Shown piece by piece: positions 1 to 9,988 of a stretch of 10,468 nucleotides of DNA. A program made the position numbers and the translations under genes. Each line of letters starts with the position of its first letter. Within the stretch, counting starts at the first letter, position 1. This stretch comes from an uncultured Lentisphaerota bacterium (lineage in GTDB: Bacteria; Verrucomicrobiota; Lentisphaeria; Oligosphaerales; CAITYL01): contig CAITSE010000040.1 in assembly GCA_903894975.1 (NCBI GenBank), forward strand, positions 1 through 10,468. Direction: 5' to 3'. The notes beneath the pieces were generated by a model. That model had not been told where the DNA came from and searched no databases. It saw only the letters and a program-made list of their open reading frames with translations.

Positions 1-30
1 CTGACCCCTGACCCCCGACCCCCAAACCCT
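1..30 (-). repeat. Partial cluster of CCCYGAC/CCCCGAC heptamer-like units at the window edge (reverse complement GTCRGGG/GGGTT-type), same family as the GGGTTCR repeats elsewhere
   Basis: Direct reading: ctgacccctgacccccgacccccaaaccc; C-rich-strand version of the GGGTTCA/GGGGTCG units seen at 1041, 3146, 7782, 8403 and 9404. Confidence 0.5.
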
Positions 31-96: not shown

Positions 97-1185
97 TTGT
101 CGCATGAGGATCTGCCCGTGACCGCCACCCCTTCTGAATCTTCCGGTTCCGCCGCGGCGTTCAATCCTGGCGCGGTGTTGGGGCAATACCGTATTGTCCG
201 CCTGCTCGGCCGCGGCGGGATGGGCGAGGTGTATGAGGTGGAGCATGCCGTGCTGCACCGGCGGTATGCGTTGAAATTGCTGCCGGCGGAGTTCGCCGCC
301 GCGTCCGGCGCGCTGGAGCGGTTCCAACGCGAGGCCCGGGTGATGGCGGCCTTGGAGCATCCGAATATCCTCCAGGTCGATGACTTCGGCGAGACCGGCG
401 GCCGCTACTGGCTGCGCATGGAACTGGCCAACGGCGTCAATGCCGCCGGGAAGCCATGCGTCTCCCTGGCCGATTGGGTGGAAGCAAAAGGGGGGAAATT
501 GGATGCGGCGCGGGCGGCGGGCGTGCTTGGGCATATTCTTTCCGGCCTGGCCCACGCTCACAAACGCGGCGTGGTGCATCGCGACCTCAAGCCCGCCAAC
601 ATCCTGCTCCTGACCGCTGCCGATGGGAAGACGGAGGTCAAGATCGCCGACTTCGGCCTGGTACGGCTGGTGGGTGAGGAATGGGTGCGGGGGCGCGCCG
701 AGCAATCCATACGTTTGTCCATGAGCCTGGGCGACCAGCGGACCATGGCCCCGGACGGCGGGTCTTCCACCGGGTCGCTGATCGGCACCTATGCCTACAT
801 GAGCCCCGAACAGAAGCGCGGCGCCGAGGCCGACATGCGCAGCGACGTCTACGCCATGGGCCTCATCGCCTACCGCCTGTTCACCGGGCGCAAGCTGGGC
901 CTCAAGAAGCCGTCCGAACTAGTGCCCGGCCTGGCCCCGGCCTGGGACACCTGGATCATGACCGCGCTGGAGGAAGCCCCCGGCGATCGCTTTGCCGATG
1001 CGGGCGAGCTCCTGGCCGCCATGCCGGACGCGGGGGATGAGGGTTCAGGGTTCGGGGTTCAGGGGTCGGGGACGAACCCGCAACCCGCAACCCACAACCC
1101 GCGGTTCAGGGTTCAGGGTTCGGGGTTCAGGAAAAAGAACCCGCAACCCACAACCCACAACCCGCAACCCATTCCGGCTGGCTGA
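97..1185 (+). CDS. Hanks-type (eukaryotic-like) Ser/Thr protein kinase. The catalytic domain ends near nt 1040; the last ~45 codons are translated heptamer repeat
   Basis: Glycine-rich loop LGRGGMGEVY, lysine in YALKLL, catalytic loop HRDLKPANILL, DFG (IADFGLVRL), SPE-type activation-segment end (YMSPEQ), subdomain IX DVYAMGLIAY. The track start at 97 is TTG; an in-frame GTG at 118, preceded by GAGGA at 106-110 with a 7-nt spacer, is a more plausible start. The C-terminal residues ...GSGFGVQGSGTNPQPATHNPRFRVQGSGF... are a translation of the GGGTTCR/AACCCRC repeat. Confidence 0.85.
   Translation: MSHEDLPVTATPSESSGSAAAFNPGAVLGQYRIVRLLGRGGMGEVYEVEHAVLHRRYALKLLPAEFAAASGALERFQREARVMAALEHPNILQVDDFGETGGRYWLRMELANGVNAAGKPCVSLADWVEAKGGKLDAARAAGVLGHILSGLAHAHKRGVVHRDLKPANILLLTAADGKTEVKIADFGLVRLVGEEWVRGRAEQSIRLSMSLGDQRTMAPDGGSSTGSLIGTYAYMSPEQKRGAEADMRSDVYAMGLIAYRLFTGRKLGLKKPSELVPGLAPAWDTWIMTALEEAPGDRFADAGELLAAMPDAGDEGSGFGVQGSGTNPQPATHNPRFRVQGSGFRKKNPQPTTHNPQPIPAG
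1041..1170. repeat. Heptamer repeat cluster: (GGGTTCR/GGGGTCG)4 - (AACCCRC)4 - (GGGTTCR)4 - (AACCCRC)5, i.e. alternating G-rich and C-rich blocks that can pair into imperfect hairpins
   Basis: Direct reading of 1041-1070 gggttcagggttcggggttcaggggtcgggg, 1071-1100 acgaacccgcaacccgcaacccacaaccc, 1101-1130 gcggttcagggttcagggttcggggttcag, 1137-1170 gaacccgcaacccacaacccacaacccgcaaccc. G-rich blocks satisfy G3+N1-7 x4 (G-quadruplex motif). Confidence 0.8.
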
Positions 1186-1193
1186 AATGGGCG

Positions 1194-2579
1194 GTGGTGG
1201 GGCTGGGGCTGGCGGGCGTGGTTGCGGGGGCGTTTCTGGTGTGGCCGCGGCTGTTTCCGGCGGAGCAGGGGGTAGAGCGCAGGGTTCAGGGTTCAGGCGG
1301 TGGAGTGGAGAATCCTTCCGTTTCCAGTTCCCCGCCGCCGGGTGCAAACCCGCAGCCTATATCCCAGATCCCGGCGCCGGCGCCGCCGCCCCCGCAAGCC
1401 GTCATACCCCTGACCGCGCCGCCGGTGAAGCCGATCGTGCCGCCGGCGCCGTCGCCGGCCGTGACCACGCCGGCCGCGCCTGCGTCCACGATTCTTTTCC
1501 AAGACAATTTTGATGCCTACCCGGCCGGCACGTTTCCCGCTGGGTGGACCCTGCGGTACAATGGCCCCGGGACACAAAATCAGTATGTGGACAAGACGTA
1601 CTTCGTCTCATCCCCACAGGCCTTGCATCTGGTCGGTTCGGGAAGCTGGTCTGGCAACGCCTATCATCCGATAACCTTTCCGGCCAATTCCGTCTCCAGG
1701 GTGAGGGTCACGGCAAAGGTCTTGCTTGATCGCATTGTGTCAGGCGGAGCCTCCCCGGTTTTGGCCAGGGTTTGCCTGGAGAACCCGAGTTTAAGCACCT
1801 GGGGAACAGCTTTTGCCGCTGTGGAATTCCAGGCTGACGGGAATCTCTACGCGGCGCAAAGCAATGGTGGAAATTGCGTAAAACTTATGCCCTATCAGGC
1901 CAGGACCTGGTATACCATCCGGATCTATGTGGATTTCGCAACCCGGAGCTTTCGCGTGTCCGTCAATGGCGTCACCAAGGCGTCCGGCCTGAAAATAATG
2001 GATGCCGGTTTGCCAACCGGAGTGGAGTTGACCGCGGGACACGGGGACTCTCCCACGGCCTGGTTTGACGATGTGATGATTACCATCTTCCCGTCCGGGG
2101 GCGCGCCGGGACGCGTCGCCGCCAAAGAACCACAGGGATGGGAAGCGGCATGGAAGGCCGCGACCGGGTTCGATACCGAGGTCACAAAACTGAAACTCTA
2201 CAAAGGGATGGTCTGCGGCAGTCAATGGAATGTCGGCGCCTGCCTGTCACAGACGGGAGGAACGGCGTCGGTAGGCGGGTTGAGTCATCAGTTGTTTGCG
2301 CCGGGGAAGGGAACCTTCGATTTTCCCGCCGGCGGGTATGTGGGGTTTTCCTACAATGACGGAAAGAATCCGAAAAATCCGCTTACCATGACGCTCTACC
2401 ATGCCAACGGCTCGGTTCTGGCCGTCATCGGTGAAAGAGGCAAATTTGTGGCGTATGGCAACGGGAAATTCATGTTTGTCGACGAGGGTGATTGGCACGG
2501 GTACTACATCACGAAAACTCCGGTCGCCGACGGTTCCAGCGCGACCTGGAAGCACACGGGGTATGTCGCTGGCAACTAG
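1194..2579 (+). CDS. Membrane-anchored protein: N-terminal TM helix, Pro-rich linker, ~370-aa beta-rich extracytoplasmic domain of unknown family. It is possibly the C-terminal (sensor) portion of the upstream kinase separated by a frameshift in the repeat tract
   Basis: GTG start; VVGLGLAGVVAGAFLVWPRLF hydrophobic helix; PPPGANPQPISQIPAPAPPPPQAVIPLTAPPVKPIVPPAPSPAVTTPAAPAS linker; then ILFQDNFDAYPAGTFPAGW... with no recognised catalytic motifs. Frame 0 is open from nt 1041, so it overlaps the kinase frame across the whole repeat. A GGGTTCAGGGTTCAGG copy lies in-frame at 1283-1300. Confidence 0.7.
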   Translation: MVGLGLAGVVAGAFLVWPRLFPAEQGVERRVQGSGGGVENPSVSSSPPPGANPQPISQIPAPAPPPPQAVIPLTAPPVKPIVPPAPSPAVTTPAAPASTILFQDNFDAYPAGTFPAGWTLRYNGPGTQNQYVDKTYFVSSPQALHLVGSGSWSGNAYHPITFPANSVSRVRVTAKVLLDRIVSGGASPVLARVCLENPSLSTWGTAFAAVEFQADGNLYAAQSNGGNCVKLMPYQARTWYTIRIYVDFATRSFRVSVNGVTKASGLKIMDAGLPTGVELTAGHGDSPTAWFDDVMITIFPSGGAPGRVAAKEPQGWEAAWKAATGFDTEVTKLKLYKGMVCGSQWNVGACLSQTGGTASVGGLSHQLFAPGKGTFDFPAGGYVGFSYNDGKNPKNPLTMTLYHANGSVLAVIGERGKFVAYGNGKFMFVDEGDWHGYYITKTPVADGSSATWKHTGYVAGN

Positions 2580-2781: not shown

Positions 2782-3144
2782 ATGGTGGATGAAACCAAAA
2801 ACTATCTGACTTTGGAAGAGGTCGCGGACCGGCTGGGAGTGCATTACCAGCTCATCTACCGGTTGGTGCGTGACGGCGAGCTGCCGGCGATCCGGCTGGG
2901 CCGGGTGTACCGGGTGGAGACGACGGATCTGGAGGCCTTCCTCCAGGCGTCAAAGACGGCGCGGGTGCGTTCGCCGGGGGCGGAGCCGCCGGCGGCGTGC
3001 AGCGCCTGCGGCAAGGTCTACAAGAGCCGGCAGTCGCTGACCCAGGAATGTGAAGAGTGCAGCAGCCCGATTTGCGCGGATTGCTGGAGCCGGCGGAAGG
3101 TGCGCAAGTGCAAGGAGCATGGGGGCGGCGGTGGGGGTGGGTGA
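2782..3144 (+). CDS. Excisionase-family (Xis/MerR-like) helix-turn-helix DNA-binding protein with a C-terminal Cys-rich zinc ribbon and poly-Gly tail
   Basis: LTLEEVADRLGVHYQLIYRLVRDGELPAIRLGRVYRVETTDLEAFL matches the excisionase-type HTH pattern (TIGR01764-like). C-terminus CSACGKV...ECEECSSPICADCW has three CxxC-type pairs. The ORF ends in GGGGGGG encoded by the start of the heptamer tract. Confidence 0.85.
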   Translation: MVDETKNYLTLEEVADRLGVHYQLIYRLVRDGELPAIRLGRVYRVETTDLEAFLQASKTARVRSPGAEPPAACSACGKVYKSRQSLTQECEECSSPICADCWSRRKVRKCKEHGGGGGGG

Positions 3145-3145
3145 A

Positions 3146-3178
3146 GGGTTCAGGGTTCGGGGTTCAGGAAGGGCTGGG
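3146..3178 (+). repeat. GGGTTCAGGGTTCGGGGTTCAGG heptamer cluster (G4-capable) immediately after the HTH gene
   Basis: Direct reading: gggttcagggttcggggttcagg followed by aagggctggggttcc. Confidence 0.8.
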
Positions 3179-3185
3179 GTTCCGA

Positions 3186-3253
3186 ACAAATCCAAAATCG
3201 GCAATCCAAAATCCAAAATCAATAATCGGCGATCGGCAATCGAAAATCGGCTG
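3186..3253 (+). repeat. A-rich 'AATCCAAAATCGGCAATCC' repeat block; contains a 24-nt motif AATCGGCAATCCAAAATCCAAAAT (3196-3219) also present at 7890-7913
   Basis: aaatccaaaatcggcaatccaaaatccaaaatcaataatcggcgatcggcaatcgaaaatcggctg; internal near-repeats of AATCGGCAATC and AAAATCCAAAATC. Immediately followed by RBS TAAGGAGG (3254-3261) and ATG 3269. Confidence 0.6.
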
Positions 3254-3268
3254 TAAGGAGGTTGAATC

Positions 3269-4891
3269 ATGGGTCTTTTCTCTGACAATTGCCCGGAGTG
3301 TGGCACCAACGTGCGGCGTACGGCGAAGTTCTGCGGCAAGTGCGGGAAGCCGGGGCCGAAGAGCTGGTTCAAGTGTCCGTCCTGCCGGAAATGGGTGGGC
3401 GGGGATTCGGAGTTTTGCTGGAACTGCCATGCGGCCTTGCATCCGAACCAGCGCGGGGTGATGTCCGGCGGCATCTGGCAGCGCCCGGCCGGGATGTTCG
3501 CCCAACGTTTTGACGTGGACGATCTGCGCGGCCAGCTTGGCAAGGGCGTCATGGTTCAGGCCGGCACCTCCGCGGTGCTTTTGGACCAGGGCGTGCTCAA
3601 GGACGTGCTGGAGCCCGGCCGGCACACGCTCGACAGCCTGATGCAGCGGCTGCTGCACTGGGGTGAACCGGCCCCGCGCACCGTGATCCTGGTGGATGAC
3701 GGGGACGTGGTGCTGCCGTTGCGCATCGAGGGGTTGCGGACGCGTGAGGAGATGCCGGTCGAGTTTTACGGCGAGGTCGCCATCCATTTCCAGGCCGCGG
3801 GCGCGGATCGGCTGGTGGCGAACCTGCTGAAGGAAAAGCGGGAGGTGACCTGCCTGGAGATCACGGAGCATCTGGCCGGCGAGATCCGGTACGCCGTGCA
3901 GAACCTTTGCCAGCAGTCGCTGATGGAAGAATTGATCCGCGACCCGGAGCGGCGGCTGCGCTTGGAGAACACTCTCCAGCAGACCTTGTCCGCGGCGCTG
4001 GACCGGTTGGGGCTGGCGCTGGTGCGGGTGGCGTCGGCGGAGTTCGCGGGAACGGAATACGAGGCCATCCGCGAGAAAATGGGCGGGGTGGAACTGAAGC
4101 GGCGCGAGATTGAGTTTGACCAGCGGTTGCGGGAACTGCTGTCTTCGGACCAGATGCACCAGTTCAAGAACGAGCACGAGCTGGAGGAATACGTCAGCCA
4201 GCTCGCCCAGGAAAAGAATATCAGCGCTTCGCACCGGAACCAGGAGTTGGCGCTGTTGAAGCAGGTGCAGCGGCATGAGTTAGAGGGACACGAGGCGGAG
4301 TTCCAGATCCGGCGGGAACAAGAGCAGGCGGAGCACGAGATCGGCATCAAGGTCAAGTGGGACGATTACGGCCGCGACAAATCGCTTAAGGACGAGCGCA
4401 CCACGGACGAGATCGAGACGATCCGCCGCAAGCGCGAGGATGAAGAAGTCAAACTGGCCCTAACCTGGCGCCAGAAGAAGCAGCAGCTTGAACGCGAGCA
4501 CGAAGGGGAGCTGAAACGCTTGGAGCGCGACGACCTGGCCGAGCGCGGCCGGATCTTCTCCGGGATGAATCTGGAGACGATGCTGGCCACGATCGAGGAT
4601 CCGGCCCGGCGGGCGCACCTGCTGGAAATGCAGCAGCAACTGCAAGCGGCCGGGAAGACGCCGGCGGAGATCCTGGCGATGCAGGCGGGCCGCTCCCCGG
4701 CCGCGGCCGCGGCGTTGCAGGAAATGCTGAGGTCGAACCGGGAATTGCTCGAGTCCGAATTCAAGGAGCGGCAGCGGATCTCGGACGATGGCGCCAAGCG
4801 CCTGGAAGAAGTGATGAAAAAAGCGTTGGAAGCCGTGGCCGAGGCCGCCAAGCGCAGCGGCGGCGGCGGTCCCGTGAACATTGTGACGTGA
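3269..4891 (+). CDS. Three-part protein: N-terminal double zinc ribbon, a Band_7_1 / SPFH-like domain (YdjI-type), and a ~300-aa highly charged E/R/K/Q-rich coiled-coil C-terminal region
   Basis: Strong RBS AAGGAGG 7 nt upstream. CPECG...CGKCG and CPSC...CWNC zinc-ribbon pairs. KGVMVQAGTSAVLLDQGVLKDVLEPGRHTLDS matches the LIVRESQAAVF..G.i.DvF.PG.YTLDT signature of the SPFH-like Band_7_1 family. The region from ~REIEFDQRLRELL to EEVMKKALEAVAEAAKR is heptad-like and charge-rich. Confidence 0.85.
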   Translation: MGLFSDNCPECGTNVRRTAKFCGKCGKPGPKSWFKCPSCRKWVGGDSEFCWNCHAALHPNQRGVMSGGIWQRPAGMFAQRFDVDDLRGQLGKGVMVQAGTSAVLLDQGVLKDVLEPGRHTLDSLMQRLLHWGEPAPRTVILVDDGDVVLPLRIEGLRTREEMPVEFYGEVAIHFQAAGADRLVANLLKEKREVTCLEITEHLAGEIRYAVQNLCQQSLMEELIRDPERRLRLENTLQQTLSAALDRLGLALVRVASAEFAGTEYEAIREKMGGVELKRREIEFDQRLRELLSSDQMHQFKNEHELEEYVSQLAQEKNISASHRNQELALLKQVQRHELEGHEAEFQIRREQEQAEHEIGIKVKWDDYGRDKSLKDERTTDEIETIRRKREDEEVKLALTWRQKKQQLEREHEGELKRLERDDLAERGRIFSGMNLETMLATIEDPARRAHLLEMQQQLQAAGKTPAEILAMQAGRSPAAAAALQEMLRSNRELLESEFKERQRISDDGAKRLEEVMKKALEAVAEAAKRSGGGGPVNIVT

Positions 4892-4907
4892 GCGGGAACA
4901 TGCCGTC

Positions 4908-6212
4908 ATGAAACTGTCGTCCTGTCCAACCTGCGGCCGCGAAACCAGTTCGGGAGCTTATTATTGCCCGGGCTGCGGCGAGAAACTGCGCGGCGGCGCC
5001 GGGGCTGACGCGCCGGCGATGCCGGTCGCGGCGGCGGCGCGGGCGTTTGCGGCCGGCGGTCTGGAGCACCCGGCGCTGGGACTGCGGGGCATGGCGCTGA
5101 TGGACGGAGGCCCAGTGCTGAAGCGGCTGGACGCGTGGGTGCTGGACCGGCTCAGGCTGACGCGGTACGGCGCGAAAACGGAAGTGCCGACGGTGCTCTG
5201 CGAGACCGGCGAGGAATTCTACGGCGCGCTGTTCGCAGACGAACCGCTCTCCCAGGCGCAGATGCGGGAGCTGCTGGCGGCCCAGCTCGCCGCGGCCCAG
5301 GCGCAGGCCGAAGACGGCGGCGGCATGTTCGGCCTGTTCCTGGGGGCGCACGGTTGCCTGGTCAACGGCTGGCTGTTCCGGGAGTTGGCGGGGCTGGACT
5401 CGGTGGCGGCGTGCCTGAAGCGGCCGGAGGTGGCCGCCCGGATCTTCACCACGGCGGCCCATGAAAAATGGGGGCATGGTTTCATCAGCACCTGCACGGA
5501 GCTGGGGCGCGAGGCGGCGGCGCTGGACCTGGACCGGTTTCATTATGCCCGGCGCTTTCCCGCCCAGACCGTGACCACGCCGCGCGGCGTGCTGCTGCGG
5601 GAAAAATCCCAGGCGGTGTTCCAGGCCTCCCGGTTTGTCGAGGAAGGCTGGGCCTCCTGGGTGGATCAGCTTGCGGGGCGGAACCTGGCGGCCATTCTGC
5701 CGGAATGTCCGGAAGGCGGCGGCGGACACACTCTGCCGGAGCCGGAAACCCTGCTGGCGGCGCTGGCCGATGTCCTGCCGCCCGCCGGTATGAAGGCGAT
5801 GACGGTGTTGCTGCGACCCGGCGCGGGCACGCCGGAGCAGGCGACGGCGGCCATGGCGTGGCTGGAGGAGGCCGAAGAAAAGCTGAACGCATTTTTCACG
5901 GCGCGCTTTCATCGGCCGGCCCGGTATGTCGTCGGCCAGGCCATGTGCGCGGCGCTGGCGGCGCGGCTGGGGGAACGGGCGGTCCCGGCGGCGGTGGCGC
6001 TCGCGGGAAACGTCCGGTATGAACTTGAAAAGACCAGTGTGTCAGACCTGGTTTCGGTGGTGGCGGGCAATTCCGGGCTGAACATGAATCGGCGTCTGGC
6101 GGCGCTGCTGGCGCTGGCGGCCGCGGTGCCGCCCGGCGGGGATGCCGCCGTGGCGTTGGCGCGGGCGGCGCACGACCGGCTGAGCTGGACTGTGCCGGAG
6201 TGGGCAAGATAA
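4908..6212 (+). CDS. N-terminal zinc-ribbon protein with an Ala/Leu-rich C-terminal domain of unknown function (contains HEKWGH)
   Basis: CPTCG...CPGCG zinc ribbon in the first 25 aa; 17-nt gap from the upstream gene, so it is operonic. No confident family match beyond the zinc ribbon. HEKWGHGF is HExxxH, not a canonical HExxH zincin motif. Confidence 0.75.
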   Translation: MKLSSCPTCGRETSSGAYYCPGCGEKLRGGAGADAPAMPVAAAARAFAAGGLEHPALGLRGMALMDGGPVLKRLDAWVLDRLRLTRYGAKTEVPTVLCETGEEFYGALFADEPLSQAQMRELLAAQLAAAQAQAEDGGGMFGLFLGAHGCLVNGWLFRELAGLDSVAACLKRPEVAARIFTTAAHEKWGHGFISTCTELGREAAALDLDRFHYARRFPAQTVTTPRGVLLREKSQAVFQASRFVEEGWASWVDQLAGRNLAAILPECPEGGGGHTLPEPETLLAALADVLPPAGMKAMTVLLRPGAGTPEQATAAMAWLEEAEEKLNAFFTARFHRPARYVVGQAMCAALAARLGERAVPAAVALAGNVRYELEKTSVSDLVSVVAGNSGLNMNRRLAALLALAAAVPPGGDAAVALARAAHDRLSWTVPEWAR

Positions 6213-6240
6213 ACAGTAGTGAGAGCTGGGAACGATCCTC

Positions 6241-7773
6241 ATGGCGGATGACGCGACCATTCAATGCGGGAAGTGCGGGCGTCTGGTGCCGGCGGCAATG
6301 TTCTGCGACAACTGCGGGGCGCCGCTGGCTCCGGCTTCCCCGGACACCCCGGCGGCCCGGAGAGAGGCGGCGGCGGAGCGGGACGAGCGGAACGGCTCCG
6401 TTGCGGGAGGGGAAGAACGGGAGACGACGATGGAACCGATCGCGGCGCCCCGGCCGCGGGAGATGCGGATGCCGCCGTCGCCGGTCCGGCCCACGGACAT
6501 GCAATCGGACTGTGACGCCCTGGAGTTTTCGGTGGATGTGAGCCGGGTGTTCGTGGCAGGCGCTACTTTCCCGCTCAAGGTACGCCTGCAGTCCTCCGGG
6601 TTGGAACTGAGACGGGTCAAGGTGGAGGTGGCGACGGATCTGCCGGGCGGCGGCGCGCTACGGTCGGGCCAGACCCTGGACCGGTTACGCGCCGGTGGCG
6701 TCCGGGAACTGTCGCTGGATCTGAGCTTGCCGGAAGGGATGCAGGGGGAAAAGACCTTCCGCTGGAGCGTTTGCCTGGAGCGCGACGGCCAGCCCTGCCG
6801 GTTTGAGGCGGACCCGGTGCGGTACACGATCTATCCCGGCGATGCCAGCGCGCGGAAGGTCGTGGAGCAGGTGGTGTTCAACATCCACACCGGCCACGCC
6901 TCGGACGTGAACATCGGCGGCAAGGGCGCAGCCGAGGACTTTTTCCGCAGCCTGCGGGGCGGCGACGGCTCGGTCCGGGAACTCCTGGACCGGATGCGGA
7001 ACGCCCCGGAAGTCTGGCAGGCACTGCCTTTGCACGAATGCGAGCTTACCCTCCTGGACACGGCCCCGCCTGACGCCGCCGTGACGGGCCGGCTGACGCT
7101 GCGCGCCGGGCAGACACTGTTCCATTTGATCGCCGGGCCCGCGGTGCAGCTCGGTCGGAACCGGCAGTGCGAACTGGTGACGCGGCTGTTCTCGGCCGCG
7201 GGCGCCGCGGAGCCGGATCTGAACGCGCTCCTGAGCCGGGTGCATGCCCGGATCGAATGCGGCACGTCCGGGTGGACCGTCGAGGACGGCGGGATCAACC
7301 CGGAGGATGGCCGCTTCAAGGCGAGTTCCGGCGGGGTGTTCGTCAACGGCCAGCGCGTGGCTCCCGGAGTGAAGAGTCCTCTCCCGTTGAACCGCCCTTT
7401 TGGGCTGACCCTGGGCGCGCCGGCCGTGACGGAACCGCGGGTGATGGGCTTTGATGCGGAACTGCTGACCTGCGAGCGCTGGAACGGGGCGGACTGCCCG
7501 GTGGCGGCCCGGTGCGACCGGAAGCGGCCCGCCTGCCTGCTGCTGCGCCGGCGCGACCGGGTGCCGGAGCGGTTCGCGCTGATCGGCTGCGCTTGCGCCC
7601 CGGGGCTCAGCGTGGGGCTGCCGGAACTGGGTTCGCTGCGGGTCTGGCGGGTGCGGGATGCGTTTGCCTTCAAGTGCGGCGACCAGACCGGCTGGCTGAC
7701 GCCCGGCATCCAACTGCGGCTCTCCGGCGGCACCCAGGTCGCGGTCGAAGGCTTCCAGCAGTGGGGCTTATGA
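6241..7773 (+). CDS. N-terminal zinc ribbon + central region + FHA (forkhead-associated, phosphothreonine-binding) domain + Cys-containing C-terminal region
   Basis: CGKCG...CDNCG zinc ribbon. FHA signature at ~nt 7120-7420: LGRNRQCELV...LSRVHARIEC...WTVEDGG...SSGGVFVNGQRV...LPLNRPFGLTLG. 28-nt gap from the upstream gene. Confidence 0.85.
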   Translation: MADDATIQCGKCGRLVPAAMFCDNCGAPLAPASPDTPAARREAAAERDERNGSVAGGEERETTMEPIAAPRPREMRMPPSPVRPTDMQSDCDALEFSVDVSRVFVAGATFPLKVRLQSSGLELRRVKVEVATDLPGGGALRSGQTLDRLRAGGVRELSLDLSLPEGMQGEKTFRWSVCLERDGQPCRFEADPVRYTIYPGDASARKVVEQVVFNIHTGHASDVNIGGKGAAEDFFRSLRGGDGSVRELLDRMRNAPEVWQALPLHECELTLLDTAPPDAAVTGRLTLRAGQTLFHLIAGPAVQLGRNRQCELVTRLFSAAGAAEPDLNALLSRVHARIECGTSGWTVEDGGINPEDGRFKASSGGVFVNGQRVAPGVKSPLPLNRPFGLTLGAPAVTEPRVMGFDAELLTCERWNGADCPVAARCDRKRPACLLLRRRDRVPERFALIGCACAPGLSVGLPELGSLRVWRVRDAFAFKCGDQTGWLTPGIQLRLSGGTQVAVEGFQQWGL

Positions 7774-7781
7774 AGAGGAGA

Positions 7782-7865
7782 AGGCAGGGGTCGGGGTTCA
7801 GGGTTCAGGAAGCAAAGATGTCAGGACGCAAGGGTTCAGGGGTCGGGGTTCAGGGTTCAGGAAAG
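7782..7865 (+). repeat. Two GGGTTCR heptamer clusters (7782-7808 and 7829-7861), G-rich on + strand, G4-capable
   Basis: ggggtcggggttcagggttcagg ... agggttcaggggtcggggttcagggttcagg. Confidence 0.8.
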
Positions 7866-7870
7866 GCCAG

Positions 7871-7932
7871 GAATTAGGGAAAAATCCGGAATCGGCAATC
7901 CAAAATCCAAAATGAGAATCAGGGTTCAGGGA
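7871..7932 (+). repeat. A-rich block carrying the shared 24-nt motif AATCGGCAATCCAAAATCCAAAAT (7890-7913), followed by AGGGTTCAGGG
   Basis: gaattagggaaaaatccggaatcggcaatccaaaatccaaaatgagaatcagggttcaggg; identical 24-mer to 3196-3219. Confidence 0.6.
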
Positions 7933-7964: not shown

Positions 7965-8456
7965 ATGGAAACGTACCGGAGGTTGGAGGACTTGGCGGTT
8001 TACGCGAAGCTTTGTCACTTGCACATTGAGATCAGCGGGATCACGCACCGATGGCCGGCTGAGGAGAAGTACGAGCTGGGATCGCAGGCCCGGCGTTCAT
8101 CGAACAGCGCCCCGGCCCAACTTGCGGAGAAGTATGATGACCGGCATATTCGGAACAAAATCGAAGGAGTCAATCGCAGTCGGGGCGAGGCCGCGGAGAC
8201 GGTACACCATCTTTACATGGCACATTTGCGGGGCTACGAGTCTCAGACGACGTATGAAGAATACCGCGCCCGCTACCAGGAATGCATCCGGATGCTTAAC
8301 GGCATGGAACGAACCCTTGAAAAACAACTGCCCGAATCGGAGCGGCGTTGGCCCCAATTGTCCGTGCGGGAAGAGGAGGGCTCGTATGACGCCTCCCCCC
8401 GCGGTTTCCCCGACCCCCGACCCCTGACCCCCGACCCCCGAACCCCTGAACCCTGA
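7965..8456 (+). CDS. Four-helix-bundle protein of the TIGR02436 family (the family first seen inside 23S rRNA intervening sequences); the last ~20 codons are translated C-rich repeat
   Basis: LGSQARRSSNSAPAQLAEKY...HIRNKIEGVNRSRGEAAETVHHLYMAHLRGY...YQECIRMLNGMERTLEK matches the family signature (L.SQ.RRSS.S...NIAEG...F..A.GS..E..~~...L.yi...eei.kML..Li). RBS GGAGA at 7951-7955. Tail ...PRGFPDPRPLTPDPRTPEP is repeat-derived. Confidence 0.8.
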   Translation: METYRRLEDLAVYAKLCHLHIEISGITHRWPAEEKYELGSQARRSSNSAPAQLAEKYDDRHIRNKIEGVNRSRGEAAETVHHLYMAHLRGYESQTTYEEYRARYQECIRMLNGMERTLEKQLPESERRWPQLSVREEEGSYDASPRGFPDPRPLTPDPRTPEP

Positions 8457-8490
8457 ACCCCGAACCCCGAACCCTGAACCCCGAACCCTA
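8403..8490 (-). repeat. Heptamer cluster in inverted orientation (CCCYGAC/CCCTGAA/CCCCGAA units; G-rich on minus strand)
   Basis: cccgcggtttccccgacccccgacccctgacccccgacccccgaacccctgaaccctgaaccccgaaccccgaaccctgaaccccgaaccctaagcc; reverse complement of the GGGTTCR arrays at 7782-7865. Confidence 0.8.
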
Positions 8491-9366: not shown

Positions 9367-9403
9367 AAAGGACGTGGGACTTGTGACCTGAGAGGTGAAT
9401 GCA

Positions 9404-9853
9404 AAACGCCAAAGGGTTCAGGGTTCGGGGTTCAGGACGGATGGATGCGAAACACACTCAAGCTCCAATGTCCCCCGTCCCCTGCCACCCTAAACGCCAA
9501 AGGGTTCGGGGTTCAGGGTTCAGGACGGATGGATGCGAAACACACTCAAGCTCCAATGTCCTCCGTCCCCCTGCCACCCTAAACGCCAAAGGGTTCGGGG
9601 TTCGGGGTTCAGGACGGATGGATGCGAAACACATTCAAGCTCCAAGGTCCCCTGTCCCCTGCCACCGAGAGGTGAATGCAAAACGCCAAAGGGTTCGGGG
9701 TTCGGGGTTCAGGACGAATGGATGCGAAACACACTCAAGCTCCAATGTCCCCTGTCCCCTGCCACCCCAAACGCCAAAGGGTTCAGGGTTCGGGGTTCAG
9801 GACGAATGGATGCGAAACACACTCAAGCTCCAATGTCCCCGTCCCCCCACCCC
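9404..9853 (+). repeat. Five tandem copies of an ~88-bp unit (88, 89, 100 with a 13-nt insert, 88, ~85 bp), each containing AAACGCCAAAGGGTTCRGGGTTCRGGGTTCAGGACGRATGGATGCGAAACACACTCAAGCTCCAATGTCCCCYGTCCCCTGCCACCC
   Basis: Unit boundaries at aaacgcc: 9404, 9492, 9581, 9681, 9769. The third unit carries the gagaggtgaatgc insert that also precedes the first unit (9391-9403). Not CRISPR: there are no unique spacers; the whole unit is repeated. Confidence 0.85.
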
Positions 9854-9890
9854 CTGAACCCTGAACCCTGAACCCTGAACCCTGAACCCT
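9854..9890 (-). repeat. (CCCTGAA)5 perfect heptamer run, the reverse complement of TTCAGGG, capping the 88-bp tandem array
   Basis: ccctgaaccctgaaccctgaaccctgaaccctgaaccct. Confidence 0.85.
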
Positions 9891-9988
9891 ACCCTCGCAC
9901 CCCTTCTGCACCCGCCTCTTGAAACTGGAACTGGAACTCAGAGATTGGCAACGGAACTGTCGGAAACATCAGGCAAGGAGATCATGGC

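What the first reader, a model, noticed from the sequence alone, without database searches (positions are those of the whole stretch)
1041..1200. Kinase catalytic domain and a TM + extracytoplasmic sensor-like ORF separated only by a heptamer-repeat tract in which both reading frames are open: possible slipped-strand phase-variable or frameshifted receptor kinase
Seen in sequence: the kinase frame (frame 1) reads through the repeat to TGA 1183-1185. Frame 0, which encodes the TM helix, Pro linker and large external domain (GTG 1194 onward), is already open from nt 1041, the first base after a TGA. The two frames therefore overlap across the entire 7-nt-unit repeat. Because 7 is 1 mod 3, gain of one unit or loss of two units fuses the kinase to the TM/sensor ORF, and loss/gain in the other direction separates them. 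A further GGGTTCAGGGTTCAGG copy sits in-frame inside the downstream ORF (1283-1300), encoding RVQGSG.
Established knowledge: many bacterial STKs (PknB-like) are kinase-TM-extracellular sensor fusions. Short tandem repeats whose unit is not a multiple of 3 are classic contingency loci.
Inference: either one receptor-kinase gene disrupted by frameshift or sequencing error, or a genuinely phase-variable coupling of kinase and sensor. The alternative is that they are two separate genes and the repeat is purely intergenic.
Basis: partly seen in the sequence, partly recalled or inferred. Interest (0 to 1): 0.7.

Follow-up and report, generated by a model that had tools for sequence, protein, structure and literature searches.

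The report
Receptor kinase split by heptamer hairpins
A bacterial receptor-type protein kinase is encoded here in two out-of-frame pieces (kinase; membrane anchor plus outside domain), joined by a pair of hairpin-forming 7-base repeat elements that litter this genome. The join is identical in every sample found, so it looks like a fixed split or dying gene, not an on/off switch.

Summary
The coordinates, stops and frame arithmetic are correct. The tract is not a simple heptamer run. It is two tandem 61/63-nt units, each (GGGTTCR)x4, a short loop, then (AACCCRC)x4-5, which makes two imperfect hairpins. Its units cannot encode a stop in any + frame, so all three frames are open and the "two open frames" are automatic. 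The same arrays fill 5 of 6 intergenic gaps in the window. The core 23-mer occurs in more than 120 metagenome contigs, usually as a hairpin just after a stop codon. The tract is base-identical in three independent assemblies, and two more show the same gene spacing. No fused allele turned up in searches of a 5.8-billion-cluster protein database. Phase variation and assembly error are therefore unsupported. Best reading (about 0.5): a former kinase-TM-ectodomain receptor kinase, now fixed in a split state that needs a -1 shift. Support: most relatives carry a TM segment after the kinase; the second-closest ectodomain homologue is a kinase-TM-ectodomain protein; ORF2 starts inside its TM helix without an SD; and the 3' arms are a rare stop-free variant. 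Rivals are two genuine genes (0.25) and -1 recoding at G_AAA_AAG (0.08). The split gene is ordinary. The widespread hairpin family is the more interesting by-product.

The parts
118..1185 (+). Hanks-type Ser/Thr kinase ORF (355 aa as called in public assemblies). The catalytic domain ends near nt 1020. The last 48 codons (1041-1182) are encoded by the repeat.
   Evidence: Pfam Pkinase 131 bits against a cut-off of 31.7. The motifs GRGGMG, YALK, HRDLKPAN, DFG and SPE are visible in the translation. SD-like GAGGA lies upstream of GTG118. The same 355-aa protein, P0003, is on 6 contigs.
1038..1040 (+). TGA in the ORF2 frame, after which that frame stays open.
1041..1069 (+). G-rich heptamer array 1 (GGGTTCA GGGTTCG GGGTTCA GGGGTCG), the 5' arm of hairpin A.
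1070..1074 (+). Loop of hairpin A (GGACG).
1075..1102 (+). C-rich heptamer array 1 (AACCCGC x2, AACCCAC, AACCCGC), the stop-free 3' arm of hairpin A.
1103..1130 (+). G-rich heptamer array 2, the 5' arm of hairpin B.
1131..1137 (+). Loop of hairpin B, GAAAAAG. In the kinase frame it reads AGG AAA AAG, so it is a non-canonical candidate -1 slippery site (G_AAA_AAG). A -1 slip here enters the ORF2 frame.
   Evidence: Read directly. The frames were checked. No special downstream structure was found.
1138..1170 (+). C-rich heptamer array 2 (AACCCGC, AACCCAC x2, AACCCGC, AACCC), the stop-free 3' arm of hairpin B.
   Evidence: RCAACCC arrays occur in no fetched locus other than this one and its three near-identical copies.
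1183..1185 (+). Kinase-frame stop TGA, 8 nt before GTG 1194.
1179..1244 (+). Predicted transmembrane helix WLKWAVVGLGLAGVVAGAFLVW in the ORF2 frame. Its first five residues lie upstream of the only available start, GTG 1194.
   Evidence: Translation. Similar K/R-W-started TM segments follow the kinase in homologues.
1194..2579 (+). ORF2 (461 aa). It has a TM remnant, a Pro-rich stalk (about 1326-1487), a ~200-aa ConA/CBM-like ectodomain (about 1482-2093) and a C-terminal domain.
   Evidence: Weak PF22585 match, 28.3 bits against a cut-off of 27. 680 HMMER relatives match the ectodomain. No SD-like motif at proper spacing before GTG 1194.
1282..1297 (+). Short in-frame GGGTTCA array inside ORF2 (RVQGSG).

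Best explanation
The tract is two tandem copies of a heptamer-array hairpin element. This repeat family occupies almost every intergenic gap of this PVC-type genome and is widespread in environmental metagenomes.

Here the element sits in the juxtamembrane linker of what was a single-pass receptor Ser/Thr kinase: cytoplasmic Hanks kinase, linker, TM helix, Pro-rich stalk, ConA/CBM-like ectodomain. It survived inside the gene as a rare stop-free variant, with 3' arms of RCAACCC instead of the usual YGAACCC.

In the allele now present, the kinase and the TM/ectodomain part are out of frame by -1/+2. This state is fixed in the sampled population, so the gene is split. One product is a soluble kinase with a 48-residue repeat-encoded tail.

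Inferences (not shown):
- A separate membrane-anchored ectodomain protein is made only if ribosomes reinitiate at GTG 1194, 8 nt after the kinase stop.
- The frameshift probably arose by a small indel or unit change inside the element. For example, loop B is 7 nt against 5 nt in loop A, and removing 2 nt there restores one ORF.

It is not a slipped-strand switch.
For: 1. Both parts are real. Pkinase scores 131 bits with all catalytic motifs. The ORF2 ectodomain has 680 HMMER relatives.
2. Family norm. In my hydrophobicity screen of the kinase homologues, most of those with 85 or more residues after the kinase domain carry a TM segment there. By my count that is roughly 50 of roughly 75.
3. The second-best ectodomain homologue, P0124 (836 aa), is Zn-ribbon + Pkinase + TM + TPR + this ectodomain. 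Identity is 57% in the ectodomain and 34% in the kinase, with a comparably long activation-segment insert. P0152 is TIR + TM + Pro-rich + ectodomain.
4. The ORF2 frame has no start before GTG 1194, which lies inside the predicted TM helix (WLKWA precedes it). There is no charged n-region and no SD at proper spacing. Several other window genes have GGAG/GAGG-like motifs upstream, and stand-alone ectodomain homologues begin MK....
5. Both 3' arms are stop-free RCAACCC arrays. Of 165 C-type arrays in high-GC metagenome loci, 158 contain a stop trinucleotide, and GC/AC units make up 3 of 728. RCAACCC arrays occur nowhere else in the loci fetched by then. This is what a filter for read-through predicts.
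6. Heptamer arrays do live in frame inside kinase ORFs of relatives (P0008, P0031, P0040, P0044, P0096, and a 60-nt array in L007).
7. The allele is real and fixed. The tract is base-identical in L001-L003, two further assemblies have the same gene spacing, and there are no gaps in 5.8-7.9 kb alignments.
Against: - No true orthologue of the locus exists in the databases searched. ORF2 has only domain-level relatives, and the closest kinase is 63% identical and not syntenic. The ancestral state is therefore inferred, not observed.
- Stand-alone kinases of this family followed by separate genes do exist (P0052/P0054, P0090, P0087).
- 18 of the 20 ectodomain homologues checked are ordinary extracellular multidomain proteins, not signalling fusions.
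- ORF2 is still intact over 461 codons. Either the split is recent or ORF2 functions on its own.
- Tract 1042-1170 is 129 nt, a multiple of 3, so the frameshift cannot be pinned to a specific event.
- The stop-free arms could instead belong to an independent heptamer flavour.
Confidence: 0.5

Rival explanations
1. Two genuine genes in an operon: a soluble stand-alone kinase whose 3' end has been colonised by the repeat element, and an independently (or coupling-) initiated membrane-anchored surface protein. The repeat lies in the kinase tail and has nothing to do with coupling the two.
For: - Stand-alone kinases of this family with tightly following separate genes exist.
- The ectodomain is mostly found in non-kinase secreted proteins, many with their own N-terminal signal.
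- The arrays are typically intergenic in this genome.
- An 8-nt stop-to-start spacing is normal for coupled genes.
- All public gene calls give two genes.
Against: - GTG 1194 sits inside the TM helix, with no SD and no charged n-region.
- Nothing would select for stop-free 3' arms if the kinase could simply end early.
- P0124 shows this ectodomain on a kinase-TM protein.
- Most relatives have a TM segment after the kinase.
Confidence: 0.25
2. Programmed -1 ribosomal frameshifting at G_AAA_AAG (1131-1137), or low-level spontaneous slippage there, yields two products: a soluble kinase and a full-length receptor kinase.
For: AAA AAG are zero-frame codons. A -1 slip lands exactly in the ORF2 frame (QEKEPATH...SGWLKW...). 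A_AAG-type sites are known to be slippery in bacteria (dnaX, IS3 family; own knowledge). The split is stably maintained with an intact downstream ORF.
Against: - The heptamer is not a canonical X_XXY_YYZ site, because the first base is G.
- It lies in a hairpin loop, so its 5' arm is already unwound when the ribosome is on it.
- The region downstream folds no better than shuffled sequence (z = +0.23). The whole tract gives z = -1.33.
- CAGGAA(A/G) is simply the usual end of these arrays elsewhere in the window.
- No orthologues exist to test conservation.
Confidence: 0.08
3. Slipped-strand phase variation: gain of one heptamer, or loss of two, switches the kinase-sensor fusion on and off within populations.
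For: The unit length of 7 is not a multiple of 3 and the arithmetic works. Copy number of these arrays differs between loci (2.5-11 units), so slippage happens on evolutionary time scales. Heptanucleotide repeats are reported as the most abundant long-SSR class in most genomes of a prokaryote survey summarised in PMC4679880.
Against: - The arrays are short and imperfect.
- The tract is identical in all assemblies covering it, from what look like three submission batches.
- There are zero indels in any array across 5.8-7.9 kb.
- No ON (fused) allele appeared in the protein database searched.
Confidence: 0.05
4. An assembly or sequencing artefact in a repetitive, G-rich tract has split one true ORF.
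For: Contigs of this organism tend to break at these arrays: L001 ends at window position 8462 and L002 starts at position 8. The tract contains two similar 61/63-nt units.
Against: The same sequence was obtained by different assemblies (k141-named contigs and a scaffold-named contig) from different samples. The two units differ enough to be resolved.
Confidence: 0.02

Closest known systems
PknB/PrkC-type bacterial receptor Ser/Thr kinases (Hanks kinase, TM, extracellular sensor)
   Same: A Hanks kinase with complete catalytic motifs is followed by a single TM helix, a Pro-rich stalk and an extracytoplasmic beta-rich domain. An FHA-domain gene lies nearby.
   Different: It is not one ORF here, because a stop and a -1 offset intervene. 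The ectodomain is a ConA/CBM-like module, not PASTA. The kinase has a ~50-residue activation-segment insert shared with Lentisphaerae/Kiritimatiellae-type relatives.
Simple-sequence contingency loci (e.g. tetranucleotide and pentanucleotide tracts of Haemophilus and Neisseria; own knowledge)
   Same: A tandem repeat whose unit is not a multiple of 3 lies between two coding segments, so unit changes would switch the frame.
   Different: It has only 4-5 imperfect units per array, arranged as inverted arrays. No length polymorphism and no ON allele were found.
Abundant intergenic heptamer repeats (TAACTGA arrays of marine Beggiatoaceae, cyanobacteria and Bacteroidetes, PMC4679880; cyanobacterial STRR heptamers, own knowledge)
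   Same: Genome-wide, mostly intergenic period-7 arrays. One orientation gives stop codons in all three frames and is therefore excluded from ORFs, while the other orientation is tolerated in coding sequence.
   Different: The unit is GGGTTCR. The arrays usually come as inverted pairs forming hairpins just after stop codons. The same 23-mer is shared by very many metagenomic and IMG/VR contigs.
REP/BIME extragenic palindromes, and Rickettsia palindromic elements (RPE) that insert in frame into genes (own knowledge)
   Same: Dispersed hairpin-forming elements downstream of genes without a U-tail (1 of 18 has a T-rich tail). Occasional copies reside inside ORFs and add peptide segments at permissive loops or linkers.
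   Different: They are built from heptamer microsatellite arrays rather than a unique palindrome. No transposase (for example a RAYT) was seen, and mobility was not demonstrated.
-1 programmed frameshift sites of dnaX and IS3-family transposases (A_AAA_AAG; own knowledge)
   Same: AAA AAG lies in the zero frame, with the extended product in the -1 frame and a zero-frame stop 46 nt downstream.
   Different: The first base is G. There is no supported downstream stimulator, no obvious upstream SD-like stimulator at the dnaX spacing (judged by eye), and no conservation data.

Membership tests
Hanks-type (eukaryotic-like) Ser/Thr protein kinase | Match to the Pkinase profile above the curated threshold | tested here: met
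   PF00069 scores 131.3 bits against a cut-off of 31.7, over residues 31-266.
Hanks-type (eukaryotic-like) Ser/Thr protein kinase | Catalytic motifs: Gly-rich loop, VAIK Lys, HRDLKxxN, DFG, APE-like | tested here: met
   GRGGMG, YALK, HRDLKPAN, DFG and SPE are read in the translation.
PknB-like receptor kinase (single polypeptide) | Kinase, TM helix and extracellular domain in one ORF | tested here: not met
   The kinase frame stops at 1183-1185. The TM and ectodomain are in the -1 frame, and this is identical in independent assemblies.
PknB-like receptor kinase (single polypeptide) | PASTA (or other characterised sensor) ectodomain | tested here: not met
   No PASTA domain. There is only a weak PF22585 CBM-like hit and no significant PDB sequence relative.
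SSR contingency (phase-variable) locus | Long run of identical tandem units, unit length not divisible by 3, in or before an ORF | tested here: inconclusive
   The unit is 7 nt, but each array has only about 4-5 imperfect copies (88-90% matches). The longest perfect run is about 2.7 units.
SSR contingency (phase-variable) locus | Tract-length polymorphism between or within populations, with both ON and OFF alleles observed | tested here: not met
   The tract is identical in the window and L001-L003, and two more assemblies have the same spacing. There were no gaps at all in the alignments and no fused protein in the database. Within-sample read heterogeneity could not be tested.
-1 programmed ribosomal frameshift site | X_XXY_YYZ slippery heptamer in the zero frame | tested here: inconclusive
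   G_AAA_AAG at 1131-1137. The A-site AAG to AAA re-pairing is good, while the P-site AAA to GAA re-pairing is imperfect.
-1 programmed ribosomal frameshift site | Stimulatory structure 5-9 nt downstream that is more stable than background | tested here: not met
   Region 1138-1250 has an MFE of -52.9 kcal/mol against a shuffle mean of -53.8, z = +0.23.
-1 programmed ribosomal frameshift site | Conservation of the site and the two-frame arrangement in orthologues | not testable with these tools
   No orthologous locus was found.
Genome-wide intergenic heptanucleotide repeat arrays (LSSR / STRR / TAACTGA-like) | Period-7 tandem arrays, many per genome, mainly intergenic | tested here: met
   TRF arrays occupy 5 of 6 intergenic gaps of the window. 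There are 34 matches against 0.02 expected.
Genome-wide intergenic heptanucleotide repeat arrays (LSSR / STRR / TAACTGA-like) | One orientation carries stops in all frames and is excluded from ORFs | tested here: met
   TGAACCC, CCCTGAA and CTGACCC give stops in all 3 frames, while GGGTTCR gives none. In-ORF copies are in the G-rich or stop-free orientation.
REP/BIME-like extragenic palindromes | Dispersed imperfect palindromes located after stop codons, not intrinsic terminators | tested here: met
   18 hairpins were found in metagenome loci. 12 lie within 60 nt of the stop of an ORF of at least 100 aa, and 1 of 18 has a T-rich tail.
REP/BIME-like extragenic palindromes | Association with a REP-associated tyrosine transposase (RAYT) or demonstrated mobility | not tested
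   No transposase lies in the window. An empty-site comparison was not possible.

The most novel reading that the evidence does not exclude
The (GGGTTCR)n-loop-(YGAACCC)n hairpins may be an undescribed, widely distributed class of bacterial extragenic elements. They would act as bidirectional barriers, with stop codons in all three frames on both strands. They would sit just after genes, sometimes bracket IVP/Avd-like genes, amplify in tandem, and occasionally colonise ORFs as stop-free variants. In this kinase, the element-borne G_AAA_AAG loop would then serve as a recoding site that sets the ratio of soluble kinase to full-length receptor kinase.
Probability: 0.12. Interest if true: 0.65.

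Novelty: new member of a known kind. Interest (0 to 1): 0.3.

Why it matters
The finding as posed matters little. A split or frameshifted receptor kinase in an uncultured PVC bacterium with many kinase genes is ordinary, and treating it as a contingency locus would be a mistake.

Two points are useful:
1. Open overlapping frames across a repeat mean nothing when the repeat unit cannot encode stops. This is a general caution for scans of this kind.
2. The tract exposes a sequence-conserved heptamer-hairpin family that is common in environmental bacteria and (pro)viral contigs. I could find no description of it. It fragments assemblies, sits at gene ends, and can be domesticated into protein linkers and loops.

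If the split kinase proved to be recoded, it would be a rare example of a signalling receptor whose membrane attachment is set by frameshifting.

Tried and rejected
- Rfam scan of the whole window at E<=1: nothing.
- Literature searches for the heptamer strings and for heptamer repeats in PVC bacteria found only rat Kiss1 papers carrying the 14-mer. The one relevant paper was the Beggiatoaceae TAACTGA study.
- Search for orthologues of ORF2 by word-indexed search gave only itself plus P0002. The genome-contig scan with the kinase gave a best hit of 59-62% identity, so the source species is absent.
- Organism names could not be retrieved for P0001, P0003 or P0004 by exact look-up.
- SNP-based selection test: no SNP falls in the kinase or ORF2 among four sequences.
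- I looked for a recurring 'kinase, then a downstream ORF in the -1 frame' pattern. L085/P0040 is a second reproducible split (kinase | FGE-sulfatase, at a G5 run with no heptamers). L084 needs +1 and comes from a single low-coverage contig. L209 and L211 turned out to be true separate genes. No consistent pattern emerged.
- General association of IVP genes with the arrays: only 4 of 120 metagenome loci and 0 of 107 viral loci. Rejected as a general rule.
- PDB sequence/profile search for the ectodomain: no significant hit.
- Structure prediction was not attempted, because the informative homologues came from the representative library and might not have been accepted as input.
- Ribosomal hopping between the direct repeats (offset 68 nt) was considered and dropped. 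With period-7 repeats, some offset always fits the required frame.
Full report
OBSERVATION. The kinase ORF (first possible start TTG 97; public gene calls use GTG 118, which has a GAGGA motif upstream) runs through the tract to TGA 1183-1185. The frame that encodes the TM helix and the large downstream ORF is open from 1041, directly after TGA 1038-1040. Its first ATG/GTG/TTG is GTG 1194. The kinase frame is index 0 and the ORF2 frame is index 2. So +1/+7 nt, -2/-14 nt, or a -1 ribosomal slip would join them. The extra GGGTTCAGGGTTCAGG copy is at 1282-1297 and encodes RVQGSG.

Three qualifications change the weight of the observation.

First, the tract is not one heptamer array. It is two tandem 61/63-nt units (TRF period 63, 2.0 copies, 85% matches). 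Each unit consists of four GGGTTCR units, a short loop (GGACG 1070-1074; GAAAAAG 1131-1137) and four to five AACCCRC units. The arms are 73-78% complementary. As RNA they fold into two hairpins made of 5-bp helices separated by 2x2 internal loops, although the energy is not exceptional for this composition (z = -1.33).

Second, GGGTTCR and AACCCRC cannot produce a stop codon in any + frame. Accordingly the third frame is open across the tract as well (ORF 992..1513). "Both frames open" is therefore automatic and is no evidence for coding.

Third, the repeat is a window-wide family. There are 34 matches to GGGTTCRGGGTTCR (<=1 mismatch) against 0.02 expected. They lie in 5 of the 6 intergenic gaps longer than 50 nt: 1-29, 3145-3251, 7783-7913, 8408-8488 and 9404-9895.

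NOT AN ERROR, NOT VISIBLY VARIABLE. The exact ORF2 protein is carried by 8 contigs, of which the look-up read 7. Three of these (L001-L003, from ERZ27313068, ERZ27313164 and ERZ18629311) have DNA available. They are 99.94-99.95% identical to the window, with no gap in 5.5-7.9 kb, and the 1000-1215 region is base-for-base identical. Two further assemblies (ERZ1426631, ERZ1426818) have the same 355-aa kinase and the same 9-nt offset between kinase end and ORF2 start. One of them may be the source of the window; that is my inference from the coordinates. The accessions fall into three numeric batches, which I take to be three studies (inference). The 355-aa kinase product, which includes the repeat-encoded tail, is exactly the same on 6 contigs. 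Searches with ORF2 and with the kinase against 5.8 billion protein clusters returned no fused or alternative-length allele. No SNP lies in either ORF. Array-rich intergenic regions also show no indel. Minority variants within samples could not be examined.

WHAT THE TWO ORFS ARE. ORF1 is a Hanks-type kinase (PF00069, 131 bits) with GRGGMG, YALK, HRDLKPAN, DFG and SPE motifs. Its relatives (up to 63% identity) come from Victivallales/Lentisphaerae, Kiritimatiellae, Verrucomicrobiota and Opitutales MAGs. The organism is therefore a PVC-superphylum bacterium that is not in the GTDB representative set.

Most relatives that extend at least 85 residues beyond the kinase domain have a TM segment there. 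By my count from the hydrophobicity screen, that is roughly 50 of roughly 75. The others carry soluble modules such as Zn-ribbon, Sel1, FGE-sulfatase or Lcl_C. True stand-alone kinases of about 330-360 aa, followed by separate genes, also exist.

ORF2 encodes a TM helix, a Pro-rich stalk, a ~200-aa ConA/CBM-like domain (weak PF22585 hit, 28.3 bits) and a C-terminal domain. An exhaustive HMMER search found 680 relatives of the ectodomain. Of the 20 I checked, most are extracellular multidomain proteins. However, the second-best hit, P0124 (836 aa), is Zn-ribbon + Pkinase + TM + TPR + this ectodomain, with 57% identity in the ectodomain and 34% in the kinase. P0152 is TIR + TM + Pro-rich + ectodomain. 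No solved structure is detectably related by sequence.

ONE GENE OR TWO? Five observations favour a former single gene.
(a) The fused architecture is the family norm, and it exists for this very ectodomain.
(b) The only start for ORF2 lies inside the predicted TM helix (WLKWA|VVGLGLAGVVAGAFLVW). It leaves a 17-residue hydrophobic stretch with no charged n-region. Homologues start their post-kinase TM segments with similar K/R-W motifs, and stand-alone ectodomain proteins start MK....
(c) There is no SD-like motif at proper spacing before GTG 1194, whereas several other genes in the window have one.
(d) Both 3' arms are stop-free RCAACCC arrays. In the canonical element the 3' arm is YGAACCC. 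Of 165 such arrays in high-GC metagenome loci, 158 contain a stop trinucleotide. TG units make up 63% and CG units 24%, while GC/AC units are 3 of 728. RCAACCC arrays occur in no other locus fetched by then. This sample is biased, because the loci were selected for a TGA-containing 23-mer, and the two arms are duplicates. I treat it as moderate evidence for a read-through filter.
(e) Heptamer arrays do reside in frame inside kinase ORFs of relatives. Inserts follow WLRMEL in P0008, P0031, P0044, P0096 and L007 (60 nt), and another sits in P0040.

Against a single gene: no orthologous locus is available, stand-alone kinases exist, and the ectodomain is mostly non-kinase. ORF2 is intact over 461 codons. 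The tract 1042-1170 is 129 nt, so the frameshift cannot be assigned to a particular event. One simple route would be a 2-nt difference between loop B (7 nt) and loop A (5 nt), since deleting AA from GAAAAAG restores a single ORF. This is inference only.

RECODING. In the kinase frame the loop of hairpin B reads AGG AAA AAG AAC. A -1 slip on G_AAA_AAG lands in the ORF2 frame (…QEKEPATHNPQPATHSGWLKW…). However, the heptamer is non-canonical and lies in a hairpin loop. The downstream 113 nt fold no better than shuffles (z = +0.23). CAGGAA(A/G) is also the usual 3' end of these arrays elsewhere in the window. I keep this as a low-probability rival.

THE REPEAT FAMILY. A degenerate form occurs in 107 IMG/VR stretches, and none occurs in the 80 named genome loci fetched earlier. 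Some low-GC, long-array hits may be eukaryotic telomere-like DNA.

In the bacterial-looking contigs the motif is typically the 5' arm of a hairpin: (GGGTTCR)3-5, a loop of mostly 20-34 nt, then (YGAACCC)3-5. There are 18 clear cases. Twelve lie within 60 nt of the stop of an ORF of at least 100 aa, and only one has a T-rich tail. Because TGAACCC carries TGA in all three frames, and the reverse complement of the 5' arm does the same, the canonical element blocks translation from both directions.

Related MAGs carry period-7 arrays with other units. I found no publication with these sequences. The nearest described phenomenon is the intergenic TAACTGA heptamer arrays of Beggiatoaceae, cyanobacteria and Bacteroidetes, where the same orientation-dependent stop-codon logic was noted (PMC4679880). 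REP/BIME elements and the in-frame Rickettsia palindromic elements are functional analogies from my own knowledge.

VERDICT. Phase variation and sequencing error are not supported.

The most likely reading (about 0.5) is a receptor Ser/Thr kinase whose juxtamembrane linker hosts two stop-free copies of a dispersed heptamer-hairpin element, and which is now fixed in a -1-offset, split state. It yields a soluble kinase and, at best by reinitiation, a separate anchored ectodomain.

The rivals are two genuine genes (0.25), -1 recoding (0.08), phase variation (0.05) and artefact (0.02). The split gene itself is ordinary. The widespread hairpin family is the part worth a follow-up.

Noticed in passing
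window 1-29, 3145-3251, 7783-7913, 8408-8488, 9404-9895: Period-7 arrays (GGGTTCR and its complement, plus AAATCCA/AATCGGC) fill 5 of the 6 intergenic gaps longer than 50 nt. Only the AT-rich gap 2580-2781 lacks them. Public contigs of this organism tend to break at these arrays.
   Followed up: partly
L089-L208 (metagenome contigs), L213-L319 (IMG/VR): The exact 23-mer GGGTTCAGGGTTCGGGGTTCAGG is shared by more than 120 metagenome contigs, and a degenerate form by 107 viral-collection stretches. In bacterial-looking contigs it often forms a hairpin with a YGAACCC array, and 12 of the 18 clear hairpins lie within 60 nt of the stop of an ORF of at least 100 aa. No literature was found. The taxonomic range is unknown, and some hits may be eukaryotic telomere-like.
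   Followed up: partly
window 7783-7861 / 7965-8456 / 8408-8488; L115 5656-6205; L186 6583-7743: A 23S-rRNA-IVP / Avd-like four-helix-bundle gene (PF05635) is bracketed by inverted heptamer arrays, so it sits in the 'loop' of a giant hairpin. Its C-terminus is encoded by the C-rich array. The same arrangement occurs in two metagenome loci. IVP genes are rare among array loci overall (4 of 120 metagenome, 0 of 107 viral).
   Followed up: partly
window 9404-9846 and 9852-9895: Five tandem 88-nt units, each a G-array...C-array hairpin (fold z = -2.25), are followed by (CCCTGAA)x5.6. ORFs listed here (e.g. 9399..9857) are probably repeat artefacts. No copy of the unit's unique core was found in 319 other loci.
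   Followed up: partly
window 3188-3251 and 7880-7913; L129 about 1600-1670: A-rich AAATCCA/AATCGGC heptamer arrays lie between a G-array and the SD/start of the next gene. AATCGGC arrays next to GGGTTCA arrays recur in an unrelated metagenome contig, which suggests a composite module.
   Followed up: no
P0008, P0031, P0044, P0096, L007 1101-1160; P0040 / L085 4794-4827: Related kinases carry heptamer-array-encoded inserts in frame at one and the same loop (after WLRMEL...) or between the catalytic loop and DFG. This is a hotspot where the arrays are tolerated inside the kinase domain.
   Followed up: partly
L085 5250-5440 (also L086, L087): A second reproducible split receptor kinase: the P0040 kinase stops 100 nt before an FGE-sulfatase ORF. 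The FGE frame continues the kinase C-terminal helix if a -1 shift occurs at TTTCGGGGGTGG. It is seen in at least 3 assemblies, with no heptamer repeat at the junction.
   Followed up: partly
window 2782-7773; L211/L212: Downstream genes are an HTH_17 protein, a Zn-ribbon + SPFH/Band_7 protein, a Zn-ribbon protein and an FHA-domain protein. An HTH_17 + Band_7 pair also neighbours a related kinase in L211/L212, so this may be a conserved kinase-FHA-SPFH signalling neighbourhood.
   Followed up: no
window 3697-3703: Three clustered substitutions (two synonymous, one D to N) in the SPFH gene distinguish the window from all three other assemblies. They are the only shared differences in 5.5-7.9 kb.
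   Followed up: no
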